This document shows positions 15,000 through 24,509 of a stretch of 64,000 bases of DNA, piece by piece. This stretch comes from a virus (Duplodnaviria; Caudoviricetes): the IMG/VR virus record IMGVR_UViG_3300037067_004901, positions 32,001-96,000 of that record; one strand, written 5' to 3'. The first letter of the stretch is position 1. Every line of letters starts with the position of its first letter. The position numbers and the translations under genes are program-made. The notes beneath the pieces are model-generated. The model ran no database searches. It had not been told where the DNA came from and saw nothing but the letters and a program-made list of their open reading frames with translations.

Positions 15000-15075
15000 T
15001 GCGGGATGGACAAGTGGTTAAGTCGATTGGCTCATAACCAATATATCATGGGTTCAAATCCCATTCCCGCTACCA
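15000..15075 (+). tRNA. tRNA with CAT anticodon (Met or Ile2)
   Basis: Cloverleaf, ATTGG-CTCATAA-CCAAT arm, GGTTCAAATCC T-arm, encoded CCA; 1:72 mismatch but no three G-C anticodon pairs. Confidence 0.9.
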
Positions 15076-15381
15076 ATTTGTCGCTGTGTGTCACGCACTA
15101 GAACGCACGATGTTTTTGCTACTCATCGTAGTTATAAATCATAGACCCAATGATACATATGTTTAATCATGTAGATGTGTATATCTGAAGCACAGACTTG
15201 AAGATATCTAGAGCGACGATTATTTGGGTGCGACAACTTTGCCCAGCTATTTAGTTGTTGTATGTATGATTATCTCGATAAGAGCATATACCCGTCAAAT
15301 AGCTATGGTATACGCGCGGCGGCGTGGAATCGCGTTGAGCATTGAGACACGCATTTTAAAAATAAGAAAGGAGATTTTTGA

Positions 15382-17010
<1,629 letters not shown>

Positions 17011-17041
17011 AATTTTTTTATAGATAAGGAGACTTTTTTTA

Positions 17042-17869
17042 ATGCAAGTCGTTGATTTATCAAAAAAACAAGAATTAGAAAAATTTGATGTTAAAGTAAG
17101 CGAAGAACTTATTGTAGCGATAAGTCAATACAAGAGTATTGATTATACAAAATCGGCTATAGAAGCATTAAAGAAAGAGGGCGTTAAGTTTACAACGCTC
17201 ATTTTGTTTGATGGTAGTTCTGATGAAGATTATGAGAAAATTCAGAATCTTGCTGATATAAGCATTCGAATAAAGAAACGGATAAATAGCTTACCACAAA
17301 TATGGAACATCATGTTTGGCGCAGCCAAGCTCACCGCGGCTAAATATTTGTATTGGCAAGGTTCTGATATGTTATTAAACGAGCATGGTTTAGAAAATAT
17401 GCTCATGACTATGAAGTTAGGTTATGACGCAGTAAGTCCAATTAAAATTGATAATGATGTTGAAAGATTTAAAAATTATAAAAGAGTTTATAATCGCGTA
17501 ATGCGATGTGCTGGTATAAATGATAGCGCATGTCTATTTCGTTTAGATAAGCTAGACTTTTTTTGTTTTGATGAAATGTATGCGCCGTATCAATTCGAGA
17601 CAAGCGCGTTGGGTTATGCGCTGTTTCGTAAAAAATGCAGAATGTGCATAGATGATAACGCTGTCATATTACATTATTGCAGTAAAGATATAGAGCATAG
17701 CCCAAAAGAGCGTGAAATCGGAAGTAAAACTTGGGATATGAAGCGCGATTATTTTTTAAAAGACGCAAGTGAAGATAAGAGATGGTTCTTTGAAAAATCT
17801 ATAATGAACAGCGAAATCGTAAAAGATATTGGGTTCCCAGCGCATATTTATTTAGGAGACCCAAAATGA
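17042..17869 (+). CDS. GT-A (GT2-like) glycosyltransferase
   Basis: ILFDGSSD, IWN, degenerate DxD, C-terminal ILH. Confidence 0.55.
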   Translation: MQVVDLSKKQELEKFDVKVSEELIVAISQYKSIDYTKSAIEALKKEGVKFTTLILFDGSSDEDYEKIQNLADISIRIKKRINSLPQIWNIMFGAAKLTAAKYLYWQGSDMLLNEHGLENMLMTMKLGYDAVSPIKIDNDVERFKNYKRVYNRVMRCAGINDSACLFRLDKLDFFCFDEMYAPYQFETSALGYALFRKKCRMCIDDNAVILHYCSKDIEHSPKEREIGSKTWDMKRDYFLKDASEDKRWFFEKSIMNSEIVKDIGFPAHIYLGDPK

Positions 17870-18924
17870 ACATACTAGTTTGTGTCGGAGCAAGTGAACC
17901 GAGTTATACGAGTAGCAAGAGTTTTATTAGAGCGTTAAAACGCGCTGGGTATGATGTCAGAACGTGTGGTGCATATTATAAATACGATAGAGAACGCACA
18001 GAACAAGTCGATTTTGAATTAGAAGACAAATGTTTTCCAGAATTATATACATATGAAGAAGTATTAAAAAGCACTAAAGATTTTAAAGCAGATATTATAT
18101 TACAAATAGAACCACATTTTTATTTATGTGGGGAAAAACCAAAAGATATAAAAAGTTATTATTGGATTCTAGACCCACATCGAGGTGGTTATGCATACAG
18201 AAATCTTGCTAAACAAGGTGATTTTAATGCATTGTTTATGTCGCAAACTTATTTTTCTGATAGTTATTTAGAATTTGCAAAAAAAATTTATTTCTTTCCA
18301 CAAGCAGTAGATATAGATAGAATTAAATATGATGAAAACATTAAAGCAGAATGCGACATCGCGTTTATCGGTGAAACAGGCATTGCAGATAGATGCATGA
18401 GATACGACAAACGAGATGCAGATAATTATGAATATACGAATTTAATTAATGATAATTATATATTAGATTCAGAAATATATAAAGATTACGCAGAAAGAGC
18501 GAAATTGTTAATGTTGTTATCTCGTGGCTTTGATGTTCGTATATATAAAAAGAATTTTAATACAGATTATTCTAAAATAATACAAAAAGGTAAAATTGCT
18601 TTTCATCGTAGTTTATTTAAAGATATAACATTGCGAAATTTTGAATCTTTAGCTTTAAAGCGTGCGCTTGTATGCGATTACGTACCGAATCTAGAAAAGT
18701 TGATGATAAACTATAAGCATTGTCTTATGTATAAAGCTTTTGGATTCAATACAGAACTTGAAAACTTTAAACTTGATTATGAACAGGCGAAAGAAGCTGT
18801 TGACATTTTGCTAAAAGATGATAAAATGAGAAATGATATTGCAGAGAATGCGTATCAACATGTTATGAAATATCATACTTTTGATAATCGCGTTAAAGAA
18901 ATGATGAGCGTTATTACGGGATAG
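17866..18924 (+). CDS. CgeB/Glyco_trans_1_2-type glycosyltransferase
   Basis: FFPQAVD, DIAFIG, RNFES, IAENAYQHVMKYHTFDNRVKEM C-terminal signature. Confidence 0.8.
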   Translation: MNILVCVGASEPSYTSSKSFIRALKRAGYDVRTCGAYYKYDRERTEQVDFELEDKCFPELYTYEEVLKSTKDFKADIILQIEPHFYLCGEKPKDIKSYYWILDPHRGGYAYRNLAKQGDFNALFMSQTYFSDSYLEFAKKIYFFPQAVDIDRIKYDENIKAECDIAFIGETGIADRCMRYDKRDADNYEYTNLINDNYILDSEIYKDYAERAKLLMLLSRGFDVRIYKKNFNTDYSKIIQKGKIAFHRSLFKDITLRNFESLALKRALVCDYVPNLEKLMINYKHCLMYKAFGFNTELENFKLDYEQAKEAVDILLKDDKMRNDIAENAYQHVMKYHTFDNRVKEMMSVITG

Positions 18925-19005
18925 GGTAATTGGTAGCCCAGCAGACTTTGAATCTGCCAGAACAAAATAGTTCGCGTGGAAGTTCGAATCTTTCTCCCGT
19001 AACCA
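18915..19005 (+). tRNA. tRNA-Gln(TTG) with long variable arm
   Basis: TACGGGA/TCCCGTA acceptor, GCAGA-CTTTGAA-TCTGC, GTTCGAATC, CCA; 91 nt. Confidence 0.85.
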
Positions 19006-19189
19006 AAAAAGATAGGAGAGAATGATATGTATAAAGTAACAATAAAACTAAAGAACGTTGATTCTGTAGTTTATGATGATGTAGAAGATTATGATATTGA
19101 CGAAGTTACTATAGATTTAAGCATTGGTGAAAATAGGAAAATAATTTTTCCTCTTATTAATGTAGAATCAGTAGATATAGCAAAGTTAG

Positions 19190-19453
19190 ATGAATCTTAA
19201 AAAAATGAAGATTATTTTAAGAAACGAGAATATAGAACAGATGAGAAAGCGTCACGAAAAAGAAATCGAGACGCTTCAGAAGAAATGTAAACATAAAGAA
19301 ATTAGTGACTGGATGGAGTATCATTTTGCAATTGGTCACTTTTCGCATTATGTAAAAGTTTGTAAATATTGTGGTAAAATTATAAAAGAAGATAAACCGA
19401 AATTCGTAACACATAATATAGGATTTGAAAAAGCAGTTAAATTGGGGGATTAG
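19190..19453 (+). CDS. Small Cys/His-rich hypothetical protein
   Basis: CKH...CKYCG motifs; stop codon lies inside tRNA-Ala. Confidence 0.55.
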   Translation: MNLKKMKIILRNENIEQMRKRHEKEIETLQKKCKHKEISDWMEYHFAIGHFSHYVKVCKYCGKIIKEDKPKFVTHNIGFEKAVKLGD

Positions 19454-19520
19454 TAGCTAACTGGGAAAACATGTGCTTTGCAAGCATGAATTATCGGTTC
19501 GAATCCGATATCCTCCACCA
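19444..19520 (+). tRNA. tRNA-Ala(TGC)
   Basis: Cloverleaf with G3:U70 identity pair, TGC anticodon, CCA. Confidence 0.92.
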
Positions 19521-19708
19521 AAAAAAGGAGTGAAAGAAAGTGAAAAAAGCAAATAAGACGATACGACGCGAAAAAATAGCAGTAATCAATGCATGGATGA
19601 ATAAATTCCCATGTAAAAATTATTTTAAATATCAAGATGGCGGTTGTATTCATGACCGTATTAATGCACGCGAAATATATAATTTTATAGAAGCAAAATT
19701 TAGATAAT

Positions 19709-19785
19709 CAGGACGTGGGCTAGTTTGGTAAGTCACTCGGCCTGGGACCGAGTAATCGCTGGTTCAAATCCAGCCGTCCTGACCA
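19709..19785 (+). tRNA. tRNA-Pro(TGG)
   Basis: CAGGACG/CGTCCTG acceptor, CTCGG-CCTGGGA-CCGAG arm (C33), CCA. Confidence 0.88.
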
Positions 19786-19876
19786 ATTTTAATAGAGATA
19801 ATATGATTGAAATATGCGAGTTGTGTAAAGAATGTCCATATAAGAATATTTGTACTGAAACAGATAAATATGTGGA

Positions 19877-20218
19877 GTGTATATGACAGATGAAGAAATA
19901 TTACAAAAAGTAATCATCAAAGCAGAGAAGAATGGGTATAAAGGTCATATGCAGTATCTTCCCATGTTTCTCAAACGAGACCCAAGTAAAAAGAAAAAAC
20001 TTTCTAAAAAAGATTTCATGAAGTTTATGTCTCGTATTTGGTTTATTCATAAGAACGATATAATTTACTCACACGAATTTGCAAAAGCGTTTTTTGGTGA
20101 AAAAAAACATATGGAGTGTTGTGGGTCATTAGGTAATAATTTAAAAGAATATCAATATTACTTAATGTGGTTAGTTAAAATTCCACACCCTATAATAGAA
20201 CTGGAAAAATTTTTATGA
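19877..20218 (+). CDS. Hypothetical phage protein
   Basis: IIYSHEFAKAFFGE motif; ORF lies between tRNAs. Confidence 0.65.
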   Translation: MYMTDEEILQKVIIKAEKNGYKGHMQYLPMFLKRDPSKKKKLSKKDFMKFMSRIWFIHKNDIIYSHEFAKAFFGEKKHMECCGSLGNNLKEYQYYLMWLVKIPHPIIELEKFL

Positions 20219-20322
20219 CAATAAAAACTGTAATAAAGAATGGTAAAATTGTAATTAAAGATAAACATATCACACATAGACCAAAAAAATCACCGTGTGG
20301 TCAAAGAGTTAAAAAAATATGA

Positions 20323-20399
20323 GCGCGGTTTGTGTTAATGTTCGAGCATGTCAGTCTTCCAAACTGAAGGGGAGAGTTAAAGTCTCTCACCGCGCACCA
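20323..20399 (+). tRNA. tRNA-Gly(TCC), non-canonical D/T loops
   Basis: GCGCGGT/ACCGCGC acceptor, TCAGT-CTTCCAA-ACTGA, T-loop TTAAAGT, CCA. Confidence 0.85.
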
Positions 20400-20642
20400 A
20401 AATTATGAAACTATTAACATTATTTTCTATATCTATAACATTAATTAGTTTTCAGTTCGGATTTTTCTTTATCCAACAGCAACACAATGAATATAAGATG
20501 AATGATATTTTGAATTATTGTGAAAAAGTTAAGGATAAACTTGATATCAGTATTATAGATGAGCAAATTACAAGAAAAGAAGCTCAAATTTATATTAAAT
20601 CAATACAAAAAGATATAGAACGTAATAGTGTAATAAAAAAAC

Positions 20643-20717
20643 GCCCGCATAGCTTAGTTGGTAAAGCAGTAGTTTTGTAAACTTCAGACAGCCGTTCGAT
20701 TCGACTTGTGGGCTCCA
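20643..20717 (+). tRNA. tRNA-Thr(TGT)
   Basis: GCCCGCA/TGTGGGC acceptor, TTTGTAA loop, GTTCGATTC, CCA; one mismatch each in the anticodon and T stems. Confidence 0.85.
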
Positions 20718-21256: not shown

Positions 21257-21625
21257 AATACTGAACAAACTAGCGTATAATTGCGCAGAAATATATAAAT
21301 ATTTTCACACACCAAAATCAAATGACTTTAATTGGAAGAAAGCAGAAGAAGCACTTGAATTAGATAAAAGAATAAATGGCGAAGATTTTTTATTATGTAT
21401 GTTAGAGGAGACTAATGGCTAAAATTAAAGTTTTAATCAATAAAAAGAACGCAGAAGGTTGTGATACAGGTGATAGAATAACAGTCGAAGCAGATTTTTT
21501 AAAAGATAATGCTACGAACATTCTAGTGAAATTACCAGATGGTAATATAGTCACCAGAAAAAAGAAACGCGATATAATAATGTAATTAAGGAAATAGCAG
21601 TTTAATAAAAATTTTAAAAAAATAC

Positions 21626-21654
21626 TTGACAAAATCACATTTATGTGTTATACT
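21626..21654 (+). promoter_or_regulatory. Consensus sigma70 promoter upstream of the Y-RNA/Ro60 unit
   Basis: TTGACA-17 nt-TATACT. Confidence 0.8.
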
Positions 21655-21703
21655 TACTATAATAGAAAAGAAAACGTAAGATTATTTAAAAATCGGGGAT
21701 AAA

Positions 21704-21940
21704 ATGGCAGAAAATGAAAAGGATTTTAAAGTTAATATAAAATGTCCATCTTGTCAAACTATAAATAAAGTAGACTATTCTACTTTTAAGATGGCAATGC
21801 TTGCAAACCATTTTTATAGATATACATGTGATAATGATAAATGTAAATCAAGATTTTTAGTTACTTATAAAATGATGTTTGTACCAATCAAAAGCAATCA
21901 GCTCCCTGAACAAGCTTTTGAATCTTTGATAATCGAATAA
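21704..21940 (+). CDS. Small zinc-finger protein
   Basis: CPSC...CDNDKC. Confidence 0.6.
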   Translation: MAENEKDFKVNIKCPSCQTINKVDYSTFKMAMLANHFYRYTCDNDKCKSRFLVTYKMMFVPIKSNQLPEQAFESLIIE

Positions 21941-21944
21941 GATT

Positions 21945-22028
21945 TTGGGTGGCGTAGATGAGACTTACTTCGTATGATACACGCATGTGGCGTCGAGCCA
22001 CAGTCTGTTTCATCGCTTGTTCCCCCAA
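21945..22028 (+). ncRNA. Y-RNA-like element 1
   Basis: TTGGG/CCCAA terminal stem, GGCGTAG opposite CGCTTG, GATGAGAC/GTTTCATC stem, TACTTCG, internal hairpin TGTGGC/GCCACA. Confidence 0.75.
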
Positions 22029-22035
22029 TTCATTT

Positions 22036-22124
22036 TAAGGTGGCGTAGATTAGGGTTACTTCATACTCAGAGAGTTCGGGCAATTTCCCGGACATAAAAA
22101 GTCCCTTATCGTTTGTTCCCCTTA
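22036..22124 (+). ncRNA. Y-RNA-like element 2
   Basis: TAAGG/CCTTA stem, GGCGTAG opposite CGTTTG, GATTAGGG/CCCTTATC stem, TACTTCA, hairpin GTTCGGG/CCCGGAC. Confidence 0.72.
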
Positions 22125-22131
22125 TTAAAAT

Positions 22132-22192
22132 TGCGGTGACGTAGGCAAGACATACTTCGGCTATGAAAAAGTCTTGTCGCTTGATTCCCGCA
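22132..22192 (+). ncRNA. Y-RNA-like element 3 (minimal)
   Basis: TGCGG/CCGCA stem, GACGTAG opposite CGCTTG, GGCAAGAC/GTCTTGTC stem, TACTTCG. Confidence 0.72.
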
Positions 22193-22206
22193 TCGTTCTT
22201 TTAAAA

Positions 22207-22540
22207 CTGTATTGGGTGCCGTAGAATACGTGATACTTCGTATACTGACAAGTAATGTAAGCGCATAATAAATGAGATATAAGCGCGCTTGATATTTAAT
22301 GATATAAGAATAGACTTACAAAGTTGAAAACTTGTATCATTATGTAAGCAAAGCATTCTTCTACATGTCTTGCATGCGACATTGCTTTTATAGAATGTGT
22401 AACAATAAGATGTGACGGTAAACCGCGTTATAAATTGTCATGTGAACGCCTAGCGTGAGCATAGACAACTTACTATAACAGTTAAGGTTCCCAGCCGTTA
22501 AATGGACCAAGCTCACTGTTCGCTTGTTGCCCCTATATAG
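22207..22540 (+). ncRNA. Y-RNA-like element 4 (giant, ~270-nt inserted domain)
   Basis: CTGTATTGGG/CCCTATATAG stem, GCCGTAG opposite CGCTTG, GAATACGTGA/TCACTGTTC stem, TACTTCG. Confidence 0.68.
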
Positions 22541-22566
22541 TTCTAAAATAAAAAAAGGAGATAAAA

Positions 22567-24090
22567 ATGTCAAGATTTAATCAATCTACAAAAACTGTAA
22601 AATCTTCTAAAACTGTAAATGCAGAAGGTGCAGAAGCATACACTTTAACACCAAAGTTAGAGTTGTATTCGCTTGCTTGTACTTTTCTTGGACAGGATAA
22701 ATTTTATGAGAAAGCAGATAAGCAATTAAAAAGGCTTGTAGAACTGATTAAAAAGAATGACCCGGAATTTGTCGCGAAATTGGCTGTATATGTTCGCGAG
22801 AAAATGTATTTGAGAACATTACCACTTGTATTGTCTGTTGAATTAGCCAAAGTACATAGTGGTGACAATCTAGTATCTCGTGCTGTTGAGCGCGTTATAC
22901 AACGTGTTGATGAATTAACAGAGATACTTGCATATTATCAATTTTCAAACAACAGAAAGGATGTAAAAAAACTTTCTAAACTTTCCAAACAAATCAGATT
23001 AGGTATTGCAAATGCTTTTAATAAATTTGATTCTTATCAATTCTCTAAATATAATCGAGATAATGAGATTAAACTAAAAGACGCTTTATTTATTTCGCAT
23101 CCGTTTCCAAAAGATAACAAACAAGAAAATATTTTTAAAAAGATAGTAGATGATACTTTAGAAGTTCCATATACTTGGGAAGTAGAGCTATCGCGTTTAG
23201 GTCAACAAAAGTTCGATACAGAAGAAGCGAAAGCAGAAGCAGTTTCTAAGAAATGGGAAGAACTGATAGCTAGCAATAAACTTGGTTATATGGCTACTCT
23301 AAGAAATTTAAGAAATATCTTGGATGCTAAAGTCTCTACTATTTATATAGAGAAAGTCTGTCAGTATTTATCGAATGCAAAAGCTGTAAGAAATTCCAAA
23401 CAGTTACCTTTTAGATTTTTCTCTGCATATAGAGAATTAGAAGGGAATGCTTCGAAACATACTGACAAAATACTTTTTGCTTTAGAAGAAGCAGTTAAGA
23501 TAAGCATAGAGAACATACCAACCCTTAATGGTGATGTTCTGATTGCTTGTGATGTGTCTGGGTCTATGCAAACTCCTATCTCTGCTAAATCTAAAGTTGA
23601 ACGTTACGATATTGGGTTATTGTTAGGACAGTTGTTAAGATTGAAATGTGAAAACAATATACTTGGTATCTTTGGAGATACGTTTAAAGTAAAAAGAACA
23701 ACTAGCAAAGAACTACTATCGAATACAATGAGACTTCACGATATTGAAGGCGAAGTAGGGTATTCTACTAATGGTTATCTAGTGATAGATTGGTTGATAA
23801 AAAACAAAGTAGTGATGGATAAAGTAATAATGTTCACTGATTGTCAGATGTGGGATAGTAGATATGGGAACACTCAAAACTTCGCTGATTATTGGAGAAC
23901 ATATAAACAGATTGCACCAAAAGCAAAACTTATTCTCTTTGATATGGCTGGATATGGAAATACTCCTATAGACACAAAAACAAATGATGTGTATTTGATA
24001 GCAGGATGGAGTGATAAAATATTCGATATGATAGAAGCATATGAAAATAAAGAAAGTGCTGTCAAAGAAATAGAAGCGATGGAGATATGA
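22567..24090 (+). CDS. rsr: Ro60/TROVE-domain RNA-binding protein with vWA domain
   Basis: N-terminal NAEGAEAY, TWEVELS, YMATLRNL, LPFRFFSAY, MIDAS DVSGSM, FTDCQ, IAGWSD. Confidence 0.95.
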   Translation: MSRFNQSTKTVKSSKTVNAEGAEAYTLTPKLELYSLACTFLGQDKFYEKADKQLKRLVELIKKNDPEFVAKLAVYVREKMYLRTLPLVLSVELAKVHSGDNLVSRAVERVIQRVDELTEILAYYQFSNNRKDVKKLSKLSKQIRLGIANAFNKFDSYQFSKYNRDNEIKLKDALFISHPFPKDNKQENIFKKIVDDTLEVPYTWEVELSRLGQQKFDTEEAKAEAVSKKWEELIASNKLGYMATLRNLRNILDAKVSTIYIEKVCQYLSNAKAVRNSKQLPFRFFSAYRELEGNASKHTDKILFALEEAVKISIENIPTLNGDVLIACDVSGSMQTPISAKSKVERYDIGLLLGQLLRLKCENNILGIFGDTFKVKRTTSKELLSNTMRLHDIEGEVGYSTNGYLVIDWLIKNKVVMDKVIMFTDCQMWDSRYGNTQNFADYWRTYKQIAPKAKLILFDMAGYGNTPIDTKTNDVYLIAGWSDKIFDMIEAYENKESAVKEIEAMEI

Positions 24091-24509
24091 TTGAACAGTT
24101 TTCAAAAGAATATATAAATTTTTTAGAAAAGAATAAACTATTGCCACTGGATGAAACTGCAAAATATCTAAATATACACCCCGCAACGTTACGTACATTA
24201 GTTAAAAGAAACGAAATAAAAAGTGTAAAAATAGGTAAAAGATATTATTTTAATTTAGAAGATATTAAAAATAATAACAGTAAAGTTGTGTATCCAAGTG
24301 GCATAAGTGTTAGTAATGGATATCTGAAAGTTCTTGTTGGAAAAGATTTCCCAAACGCTGATTTAGATGGATATATTGCTTTACATAAATTAATATTAGA
24401 AGCTTCTTTATTAAGACGATTATTACCAACAGAAGAAATACTTCATAATGATGGTAATACTATGAATAATTTATTAAGTAATTTATTAATAAAGATAGTA
24501 AATTCGTGA
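24087..24509 (+). CDS. Excisionase-type HTH fused to HNH-like domain
   Basis: ETAKYLNIHPATLRTL..SVKIGKRY HTH; GYIALHKL...EEILHNDGNTMNNLLSNL HNH-like. Confidence 0.7.
   Translation: MIEQFSKEYINFLEKNKLLPLDETAKYLNIHPATLRTLVKRNEIKSVKIGKRYYFNLEDIKNNNSKVVYPSGISVSNGYLKVLVGKDFPNADLDGYIALHKLILEASLLRRLLPTEEILHNDGNTMNNLLSNLLIKIVNS

What the first reader, a model, noticed from the sequence alone, without database searches (positions are those of the whole stretch)
21945..24090. Modular array of four Y-RNA-like RNAs in front of a phage Ro60
Seen: four tandem units share one scaffold: terminal stem, GGTG(G/A/C)CGTAG opposite TCG(C/T)TTG, an 8-9-bp upper stem and an invariant TACTTC. Both stems differ in sequence between units yet still pair, which is covariation within one genome. 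The loops differ: almost none (unit 3), single hairpins (units 1 and 2) and ~270 nt (unit 4). Established: Ro60/Rsr binds Y RNAs at a bulged helix with CUUG on the 3' strand (bacterial 5' strand about GNCGAAG); in Deinococcus, Y RNA tethers Rsr to PNPase; the common bacterial/phage YrlA type is tRNA-like. These units are not tRNA-like. Inference: one Ro60 with interchangeable RNA adaptors that recruit different partners or targets, co-transcribed from the promoter at 21626.
Basis: partly seen in the sequence, partly recalled or inferred. Interest (0 to 1): 0.86.

Follow-up and report, generated by a model that had tools for sequence, protein, structure and literature searches.

The report
Four Y RNA genes before phage Ro60
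An uncultured phage carries four small RNA genes in a row that share one conserved Ro60-binding "handle" but have different interiors, directly in front of its Ro60 gene; the same handle occurs in arrays of 1-8 beside Ro60 genes in about 110 other phage and bacterial loci, so this is a tRNA-less, partly oversized variant of a known RNA-protein partnership, not a new system.

Summary
Four tandem units (21945-22028, 22036-22124, 22132-22192, 22210-22537, all +) share a handle. It consists of a terminal stem, a bulged U, a covarying G-N:N'-C step, a CGUAG / CGYUUGWU internal loop, a 7-8 bp upper stem and a UACUUC box. They lie 30 nt upstream of a TROVE+vWA (Ro60) gene.

A covariance model of the handle alone finds 306 further copies next to Ro60 genes in about 110 phage, metagenome and bacterial-MAG loci. 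All are on the Ro60 strand, in arrays of 1-8, including Caulobacter phage CcrColossus. Covariation is strong: 95% of cells paired against 59% when shuffled.

In relatives the interior is often a permuted tRNA-like (YrlA-type) domain. The handle is therefore the YrlA/YrlB-type Ro-binding stem (GNCGAAG with A to U, plus the known YUAY) and not a new scaffold.

Three things are unusual here:
- None of the four units is tRNA-like. That is also true of 23 of 49 of the closest loci.
- Unit 4 carries a 273-nt interior with no homologue found.
- Rfam has no model that captures this handle.

Ro60 binding, processing into separate RNAs and distinct partners remain untested inference. This scan has noted similar arrays on other DNA before. 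Verdict: new variant of a known kind.

The parts
21626..21654 (+). Promoter-like site, TTGACA-17-TATACT with an extended -10 TG; candidate start of the operon transcript
   Evidence: Best match of the region, 11 of 12. It is a consensus match only; the total count of promoter-like sites does not exceed that in shuffles.
21704..21940 (+). 78-aa ORF with two Cys pairs (CPSC...CDNDKC, zinc-ribbon-like) between the promoter and the array. Function unknown; membership in the system is uncertain
   Evidence: ORF list. No Pfam or PHROG family. No homologue beside the Ro60 genes of relatives.
21945..22028 (+). Y RNA unit 1 (84 nt): handle plus one GC-rich hairpin (UGUGGC-GUCGA-GCCACA)
   Evidence: CM R1 61.9 bits, E 1e-13; fold z -2.33.
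22036..22124 (+). Y RNA unit 2 (89 nt): handle plus one hairpin (GUUCGGG-CAAUUU-CCCGGAC) flanked by A-rich single strands
   Evidence: CM R1 67 bits, E 4e-15; fold.
22132..22192 (+). Y RNA unit 3 (61 nt): minimal unit, the handle closed by an interior of about 14 nt. The N:N' pair is A-U
   Evidence: CM R1 60.8 bits, E 2e-13. The minimum-energy and centroid folds both equal the handle structure, z -2.18.
22210..22537 (+). Y RNA unit 4 (328 nt). The 5' half of the handle is 22210-22239 and the 3' half is 22513-22537. They enclose a 273-nt interior (22240-22512) with no ORF of 40 aa or more on the + strand. The N:N' pair is C-G
   Evidence: Both handle halves match the family consensus at every invariant position. 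The minimum-energy fold of 22208-22547 closes the terminal stem and the G-N pairs across about 310 nt. The interior folds with z -2.28 on + and -1.58 on -. The CM cannot span the insert.
22567..24090 (+). Ro60 orthologue (507 aa): TROVE plus vWA with the MIDAS motif DVSGS and T..D; AAAGGAG ribosome-binding site upstream of the ATG
   Evidence: Pfam; phrog_850 at 4.5e-60; nearest solved structure is Thermus phage phiLo Ro60, 9KOP/9L5Y, E 1e-26; invariant D329-S331-S333 and T424-D425 in alignment A2.

Best explanation
The stretch is an operon of four Y RNA genes followed by the phage's Ro60 gene.

Shown:
- Each unit ends in the same handle, whose helices are kept by compensatory changes.
- The same handle accompanies Ro60 genes, always on their strand, in over a hundred unrelated loci.

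Inferred:
- One transcript starts at the promoter at 21626 and runs through the 78-aa ORF, the four units and Ro60.
- Host RNases cut in the AU-rich spacers of 7, 7 and 17 nt.
- The phage Ro60 ring binds each handle at the bulged-U / G-N / CGUAG region and so stabilises four separate RNAs of about 84, 89, 61 and 328 nt.
- The variable interiors then gate the Ro60 cavity or tether Ro60 to host enzymes. The exoribonuclease PNPase is the precedent, from Deinococcus, Salmonella and phage phiLo. This would redirect degradation or handling of structured RNA during infection.

The tRNA-like interior that defines YrlA is absent here, so whatever it contributes is either dispensable for this phage or supplied otherwise.
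For: 1. Four exact handle matches against 0 expected, beside a TROVE+vWA gene.
2. Within the window the G-N:N'-C pair changes on both sides (GG:CC, GA:UC, GC:GC). Both stems differ in sequence between units yet still pair.
3. The handle-only model R1 finds 124, 138, 36 and 8 copies in the Ro60 loci of IMG/VR phages, metagenomes, bacterial MAGs and CcrColossus. All are on the Ro60 strand, and in the 64-kb window the only hits are units 1-3.
4. Pair counts: 96.0% of cells paired against 54.3% shuffled and 42-50% slid; 94.7% against 58.6% on 121 distinct sequences, with 13 of 14 pairs changed on both sides. Many G-U pairs, for example 30 at one position, would be A-C on the other strand. The structure is therefore RNA of the + strand.
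5. The 3' consensus CGNUUGUU was not required by my partner finder, yet it appears in nearly every partner found.
6. The same handle carries YrlA-type permuted tRNA domains in relatives. This ties it to RNAs that Chen et al. 2014 (PMC4201824) showed to bind Rsr.
7. The array has 40.5% G+C in a 31% genome.
8. There is precedent for non-tRNA Y RNAs upstream of a phage Ro60 that bind it and host PNPase: phiLo Yrl1 and Yrl2 (PMC12135203).
Against: - There is no expression, processing or binding data.
- The literal bacterial motif GNCGAAN0-1G is not met: the window has GNCGUAG.
- R1 finds nothing in phiLo, so the only phage Y RNAs with binding data are not sequence relatives of these units.
- The seed units were chosen by a script that required pairing, and alignment A5 is fitted to the model. 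Both inflate the percentage paired.
- The promoter is a consensus match only (25 sites found against 22.6 expected).
- In unit 4 the minimum-energy fold replaces the upper stem by a local hairpin (AUACG/CGUAU), and no homologue of its interior exists to test it.
Confidence: 0.8

Rival explanations
1. The units are not free RNAs. They are cis-acting Ro60-binding sites in the 5' leader of the Ro60 mRNA, and the protein uses them to control its own translation or mRNA stability.
For: The units lie between the promoter-like site and the Ro60 start with no convincing terminator. Unit 4 ends 30 nt before the ATG.
Against: In relatives the same units lie downstream of Ro60 as often as upstream, for example L001, L191, L203 and L240, or on both sides, as in L181, L197 and L226. 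Four to eight different interiors are not needed for an operator. Bacterial Y RNAs processed from a single precursor upstream of rsr are documented in M. smegmatis (PMC4201824).
Confidence: 0.08
2. Unit 4 is not one giant Y RNA. It is an ordinary unit split by a 273-nt insertion (a mobile or unrelated element, or a separate small RNA gene), and is either dead or cut into pieces after transcription.
For: No relative has an interior longer than about 200 nt. The interior has no homologue in the roughly 230 loci fetched by then or in 50,697 phage records. Its fold is only modestly better than shuffles (z -2.28, 4 of 200). A homing-type HTH-HNH gene sits just after Ro60. The minimum-energy fold disrupts the upper stem.
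Against: Both halves of the handle remain intact at every invariant position, and they keep a private compensatory pair (C-G) and a matching terminal stem. That argues for selection on the closed unit. No Rfam intron or other family matches. Interiors of 150-200 nt occur in relatives, so size varies continuously.
Confidence: 0.25
3. The repeats act as DNA (protein-binding iterons or recombination sites), or they are decayed tRNA genes of the neighbouring tRNA cluster.
For: Six tRNA genes lie 1.2-7 kb upstream. Ro60 loci of relatives are often embedded in tRNA clusters.
Against: The pairs are kept through G-U wobble on one strand only, and compensatory changes preserve helices and not sequence. 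ARAGORN and the Rfam tRNA and YrlA models find nothing. In every locus the units keep the strand of Ro60.
Confidence: 0.02

Closest known systems
Bacterial and phage YrlA Y RNAs bound by Rsr/Ro60 (Rfam RF02553; Chen et al. 2014, PMC4201824)
   Same: Encoded beside Ro60 on its strand. The 5' and 3' ends pair into a stem with a G-N-C-G-purine-rich motif on the 5' strand and YUUG on the 3' strand. A conserved YUAY follows the stem (here UUAC or AUAC, within UACUUC). In relatives the identical handle encloses a permuted tRNA-like domain (T-arm, closed acceptor-like hairpin, D-arm).
   Different: None of the four window units has the tRNA-like domain that defines YrlA. The motif is GNCGUAG, not GNCGAAN0-1G. 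RF02553 gives no hit here, and only 35-45 bits (cut-off 69) on the tRNA-like units of relatives.
Second, non-tRNA Y RNAs: Salmonella and M. smegmatis YrlB, Deinococcus Yrn2 (PMC4201824)
   Same: Shorter hairpin-type Ro60 partners with the same 5' motif, encoded in the same cluster and, in M. smegmatis, processed from one precursor. They are proposed to let Ro60 form particles with other components. Unit 3 has this architecture.
   Different: One such RNA per species is described there.
Thermus phage phiLo Ro60 with Yrl1 and Yrl2 (PMC12135203; PDB 9KOP, 9L5Y)
   Same: A phage Ro60 (the nearest solved structure, E 1e-26) with several non-tRNA Y-like RNAs directly upstream. Binding to the phage Ro60 and to host PNPase was shown in vitro.
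   Different: phiLo has two units with a CGAA bulge. The handle model R1 finds no match in phiLo, so the RNAs are analogous and not demonstrably homologous.
Unannotated Y-like array of Caulobacter phage CcrColossus (NC_019406, between gp140 and gp139)
   Same: Same handle (R1 at 32-49 bits), same position directly upstream of the Ro60 gene, and variable interiors.
   Different: It has eight units, most with tRNA-like interiors, in a GC-rich genome. Only one 'tRNA-Gln' is annotated there, and it lies inside a unit.
Metazoan Y RNAs (hY1, hY3, hY4, hY5)
   Same: Several paralogous RNAs share one Ro60-binding stem with a bulged helix and differ in the loop, which binds other proteins.
   Different: No sequence homology can be shown. 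The genes are dispersed and transcribed by RNA polymerase III, not arranged as an operon with Ro60.

Membership tests
Y RNA (Ro60-associated non-coding RNA, functional class) | Encoded close to a Ro60/Rsr gene on the same strand (bacterial and phage members) | tested here: met
   The array ends 30 nt before the TROVE+vWA ORF. All 306 handle copies found in other loci are on the Ro60 strand.
Y RNA (Ro60-associated non-coding RNA, functional class) | The 5' and 3' ends pair into a long stem that holds the conserved Ro-binding region | tested here: met
   14 pairs; 95-96% of cells paired against 54-59% shuffled; 13 of 14 pairs show changes on both sides.
Y RNA (Ro60-associated non-coding RNA, functional class) | Physically bound by Ro60, with accumulation that depends on Ro60 | not testable with these tools
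   Needs RIP, EMSA or a Ro60 deletion.
Bacterial Yrl family as defined by Chen et al. 2014 | 5' motif GNCGAAN0-1G | tested here: not met
   All four units have GNCGUAG, and 120 of 121 close relatives have U at that position. CGAAG versions of the same handle exist in L134-L137 and L141, so this is a one-base variant of the motif.
Bacterial Yrl family as defined by Chen et al. 2014 | Conserved YUAY after the stem | tested here: met
   UUAC in u1 and u2, AUAC in u3 and u4. In the family the bases U, C, U and C of UACUUC are invariant in 121 of 121 sequences.
YrlA (Rfam RF02553) | tRNA-like domain: T-arm, D-arm and acceptor-like stem-loop | tested here: not met
   No RF02553 or tRNA match at E<=10 in 21600-22700. 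The best YrlA score in the whole 105-kb record is 17 bits, elsewhere. ARAGORN finds nothing.
YrlA (Rfam RF02553) | Score at or above Rfam's gathering cut-off (69 bits) | tested here: not met
YrlB / Yrn2-type hairpin Y RNA | [quoted passage not shown] | tested here: inconclusive
   Unit 3 is a long hairpin whose interior begins with UACUUC. Units 1, 2 and 4 carry extra hairpins or a large domain.
phiLo Yrl1/Yrl2 | Sequence or structure similarity to the RNAs shown to bind a phage Ro60 | tested here: not met
   R1 finds no match at E<=1 in the phiLo Ro60 locus L238. Only the general stem-bulge-stem plan and the upstream position are shared.

The most novel reading that the evidence does not exclude
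The handle is a general 'Ro60 tag' that phages fuse to arbitrary RNA cargos. In this phage Ro60 works entirely without tRNA mimicry, using a set of four adaptors. One of them is a 328-nt structured RNA that acts as an independent functional domain (scaffold, decoy or catalytic RNA) delivered to or guarded by Ro60. That would make it the first giant Y RNA and a natural, programmable RNA-display system.
Probability: 0.2. Interest if true: 0.75.

Novelty: new variant of a known kind. Interest (0 to 1): 0.45.

Why it matters
Ro60 and Y RNAs have been studied for decades because of lupus and Sjogren autoimmunity and because of RNA quality control. What the variable part of a Y RNA does is still largely open.

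This locus and its relatives form a natural series: one invariant handle carrying dozens of different interiors (tRNA mimics, simple hairpins, a 273-nt domain). That makes two questions directly testable by pull-downs in a phage-host pair: which interior recruits which partner, and whether tRNA mimicry is required at all.

In practical terms, the handle model fills a gap in annotation. Rfam's YrlA model misses these RNAs, and in the published CcrColossus genome one unit appears to be miscalled as a tRNA.

Tried and rejected
- **Rfam:** at gathering and at E<=10 on the array there were only chance hits (mir-357, tsr32, Mu-gpT-DE, 15-16 bits).
- **Phage records:** megablast and blastn of the array against 50,697 records found nothing.
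- **Pattern scan of IMG/VR:** mostly single chance hits, but it gave the decisive lead, L040.
- **Unit 4 interior:**
  - blastn and nhmmer against all fetched loci found nothing below E 0.1.
  - Comparison with the phage's own genome on either strand gave only chance matches of 12 nt or less, so there is no sign of an antisense target.
- **Neighbouring ORFs:** the 78-aa ORF, the HNH gene and the downstream ORFs have no counterpart next to the Ro60 genes of relatives, so only Ro60 and the RNAs travel together.
- **CM R1 on unit 4 with filters off:** it cannot bridge 273 nt.
- **R1 on phiLo:** no match.
- **Box pairing idea:** I considered that UACUUCG pairs with the CGWAG motif, because CGAAG and CUUCG are exact complements. 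I rejected it as unsupported: the middle base varies (A, U or C) while the box stays CUUC, so there is no covariation.
- **Review article:** the Sim et al. 2020 review (PMC10870794) is not held. A published description of multi-unit arrays there cannot be excluded.
Full report
**1. What is in the sequence**

The window is part of a 105.5-kb virus record with 31% G+C. The pattern GGTGNCGTAG-N6-11-TACTTC occurs four times, at 21948, 22039, 22135 and 22215, all on the + strand. None is expected by chance, and there is no further copy in the whole record.

Thirty bases after the fourth unit an ORF starts (22567-24090) that carries the TROVE domain and the Ro60-type vWA domain. It matches phrog_850 'RNA-binding protein' over its full length. 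It keeps the MIDAS residues DxSxS...T..D. Its nearest solved structure is the Ro60 of Thermus phage phiLo.

ARAGORN and Rfam find six ordinary tRNA genes 1.2-7 kb upstream but nothing in the array, even at E<=10.

**2. Anatomy of a unit**

Reading the four units side by side gives this plan, from 5' to 3':
- a 5-6 bp terminal stem;
- a bulged U;
- two further pairs, G-C and N-N';
- an internal loop, with CGUAG on the 5' strand and CG(C/U)UUG(U/A)U on the 3' strand;
- a 7-8 bp upper stem;
- the box (U/A)UACUUC;
- a variable interior.

It is G-C in units 1 and 2, A-U in unit 3 and C-G in unit 4. Both stems differ in sequence between the units and still pair.

The units are 84, 89, 61 and 328 nt long, and the spacers between them are 7, 7 and 17 nt of AU-rich sequence. 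RNAfold recovers the handle for units 1-3 (z -1.5 to -2.3). For unit 4 it closes the terminal stem and the G-N pairs across about 310 nt.

**3. The same handle elsewhere**

A scan of IMG/VR with the 5' pattern gave mostly single chance hits. One 308-kb phage, however, had the handle seven times in a row directly upstream of its TROVE gene. There most interiors are permuted tRNA-like domains: a T-arm GGUUCGAAUCC, a closed acceptor-like hairpin that sometimes ends in CCA, and a D-arm GUAGCUCAGCGGUUAGAGC. These give weak Rfam YrlA hits of 30-33 bits. A sister array lies in the published Caulobacter phage CcrColossus.

The phage with the Ro60 closest to the window's in IMG/VR (50% identity, L001) has four units downstream of Ro60. 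Three have simple interiors and one is tRNA-like.

I then built a covariance model of the handle alone (R1: 14 pairs, 23 short seed units, interiors left unstructured). Its hits were:
- 124 in the window plus 48 IMG/VR Ro60 loci;
- 138 in 60 metagenome loci whose Ro60 is 36-62% identical, most 46-62%;
- 36 in 26 bacterial-MAG loci of Bacteroidota, Alphaproteobacteria and Acidobacteriota;
- 8 in CcrColossus.

Every hit is on the Ro60 strand and within about 3.5 kb of the gene. Arrays hold 1-8 units and lie upstream, downstream or on both sides of Ro60. In the 64-kb window the only hits are units 1-3.

**4. Is the structure real**

On the seed alignment, 96.0% of cells form standard pairs, against 54.3% after shuffling and 42-50% when partners are slid. 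The covariation score is 1.07 against 0.22. On 121 distinct sequences aligned by the model the figures are 94.7% against 58.6%, with 13 of 14 pairs changed on both sides.

Two caveats apply. My seed units were picked by a script that demanded pairing, and the second alignment is fitted to the model. Three independent points offset this:
- The compensatory changes are visible inside the window without any selection.
- The 3' consensus CGNUUGUU turned up in nearly every partner although the script did not require it.
- Frequent G-U pairs would be A-C mismatches on the other strand.

This is therefore an RNA of the + strand. The invariant positions are the bulged U, the G of G-N, G and U of CGUAG, U, C, U and C of UACUUC, and U and C near the 3' end.

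**5. What it is**

Chen et al. 2014 (PMC4201824) defined bacterial and phage Y RNAs by three features:
- location within a few kb of rsr on the same strand;
- a 5' motif GNCGAAN0-1G thought to be the Rsr-binding site;
- in YrlA, a tRNA-like domain whose variable loop begins with a conserved YUAY.

They also showed that each species studied has at least one further Y RNA without a full tRNA-like domain (YrlB, Yrn2). In M. smegmatis both RNAs are cut from one precursor upstream of rsr. They proposed that the extra Y RNAs let Ro60 join other components.

The window's handle is that stem with one base changed (GNCGUAG), plus the YUAY (UUAC or AUAC). In relatives it carries genuine YrlA-type domains.

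The 2025 phiLo study (PMC12135203) shows that a phage Ro60 binds two non-tRNA Y-like RNAs encoded upstream of it and forms ternary complexes with host PNPase. That is the nearest functional precedent, although R1 finds no match in phiLo.

**6. What is unusual here**

- **No tRNA-like unit.** None of the four units is tRNA-like, and no YrlA-like element exists in the 105 kb held (CheckV puts the record at 60% complete). [quoted passage not shown] It is not unique, though: among the closest relatives 94 of 138 units lack a T-arm, and 23 of 49 loci have no T-arm unit within 3 kb.
- **Size of unit 4.** At 328 nt it is the largest unit seen. The next largest are about 200 nt. Its 273-nt interior has no ORF of 40 aa or more on the + strand, no Rfam match and no homologue. 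Its folding signal is modest (z -2.28 on the + strand, -1.58 on the - strand). Whether it is one giant Y RNA or a unit split by an insertion cannot be decided without RNA data.
- **A gap in Rfam.** RF02553 misses this handle altogether and scores relatives' tRNA-like units at only 35-45 bits against a cut-off of 69. The family is effectively uncurated.

**7. How it probably works**

The helices, the association with Ro60 and the strand are shown. The rest is inferred.

Transcription probably starts at TTGACA-17-TATACT (21626-21654, the best site of the region). No convincing terminator lies before Ro60; the only terminator-like hit is the interior hairpin of unit 1. Host endonucleases would cut in the AU-rich spacers. 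Ro60 would bind and protect each handle. The interiors would then either occlude the Ro60 cavity or tether the ring to host enzymes such as PNPase.

Only Ro60 and the RNAs are conserved together. The flanking genes, including the 78-aa Cys-rich ORF and the HTH-HNH gene, are not. The pair therefore behaves as a self-contained cassette.

**8. Verdict**

Earlier notes of this scan describe similar handle-sharing arrays beside phage Ro60 genes on other DNA. My own searches reach the same general picture independently.

I rate it a new variant of a known kind: a tRNA-less four-unit array with one oversized member, using a CGUAG sub-type of the handle.

Noticed in passing
window 24087-24509 (+): A 140-aa ORF overlaps the Ro60 stop codon (ATGA). 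It has an N-terminal HTH_17 domain and a C-terminal region that matches phage HNH endonucleases. It looks like a free-standing homing endonuclease lodged right after Ro60. Phage cr112_1 also has an HNH gene annotated at its Ro60.
   Followed up: partly
window 21704-21940 (+): A 78-aa ORF between the promoter and the Y RNA array has two Cys pairs (CPSC...CDNDKC), like a zinc ribbon. It has no Pfam or PHROG family and no counterpart beside the Ro60 genes of relatives.
   Followed up: partly
L174 1263-2454 (Caulobacter phage CcrColossus NC_019406, about 108503-109694): Eight handle units lie between gp140 and the Ro60 gene gp139, with no annotation apart from two predicted terminators and a 'tRNA-Gln' (109217-109284). 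That tRNA annotation falls inside one unit (L174 1670-1832), and ARAGORN calls no tRNA there, so it is probably a miscalled Y RNA.
   Followed up: partly
window 21957-21971 and the same positions of units 2-4; also L134, L141: The conserved box CUUCG is the exact complement of the CGAAG form of the 5' motif and is separated from it only by the 7-9 nt of the upper-stem strand. With CGUAG or CGCAG the middle base mismatches, and the box does not compensate. A possible alternative hairpin or switch, but without covariation support.
   Followed up: partly
L191, L153, L203 (relatives) and window 15000-20717: Ro60 and its Y RNA arrays are repeatedly embedded in or next to large phage tRNA gene clusters. 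L153 also holds an alpha-type permuted tmRNA (134.8 bits) 1.3 kb upstream of its units.
   Followed up: no
L240-L242, L247, L251 (MAG contigs of Ferruginibacter, Haliscomenobacter, Roseivirga, Saprospiraceae): The Ro60 proteins closest to the window's (54-59% identity) in genome collections sit on contigs binned to Bacteroidota. This hints at the host phylum of this uncultured phage. L240 (107-kb contig) has eight units downstream of Ro60 and may itself be a phage.
   Followed up: no
window 21945-22537: The array has 40.5% G+C in a 31% genome. Its handle needs runs of G and C (GGGUGG, CCCC), which are otherwise scarce in this phage. Another note of this scan reports GG/CC avoidance nearby.
   Followed up: no
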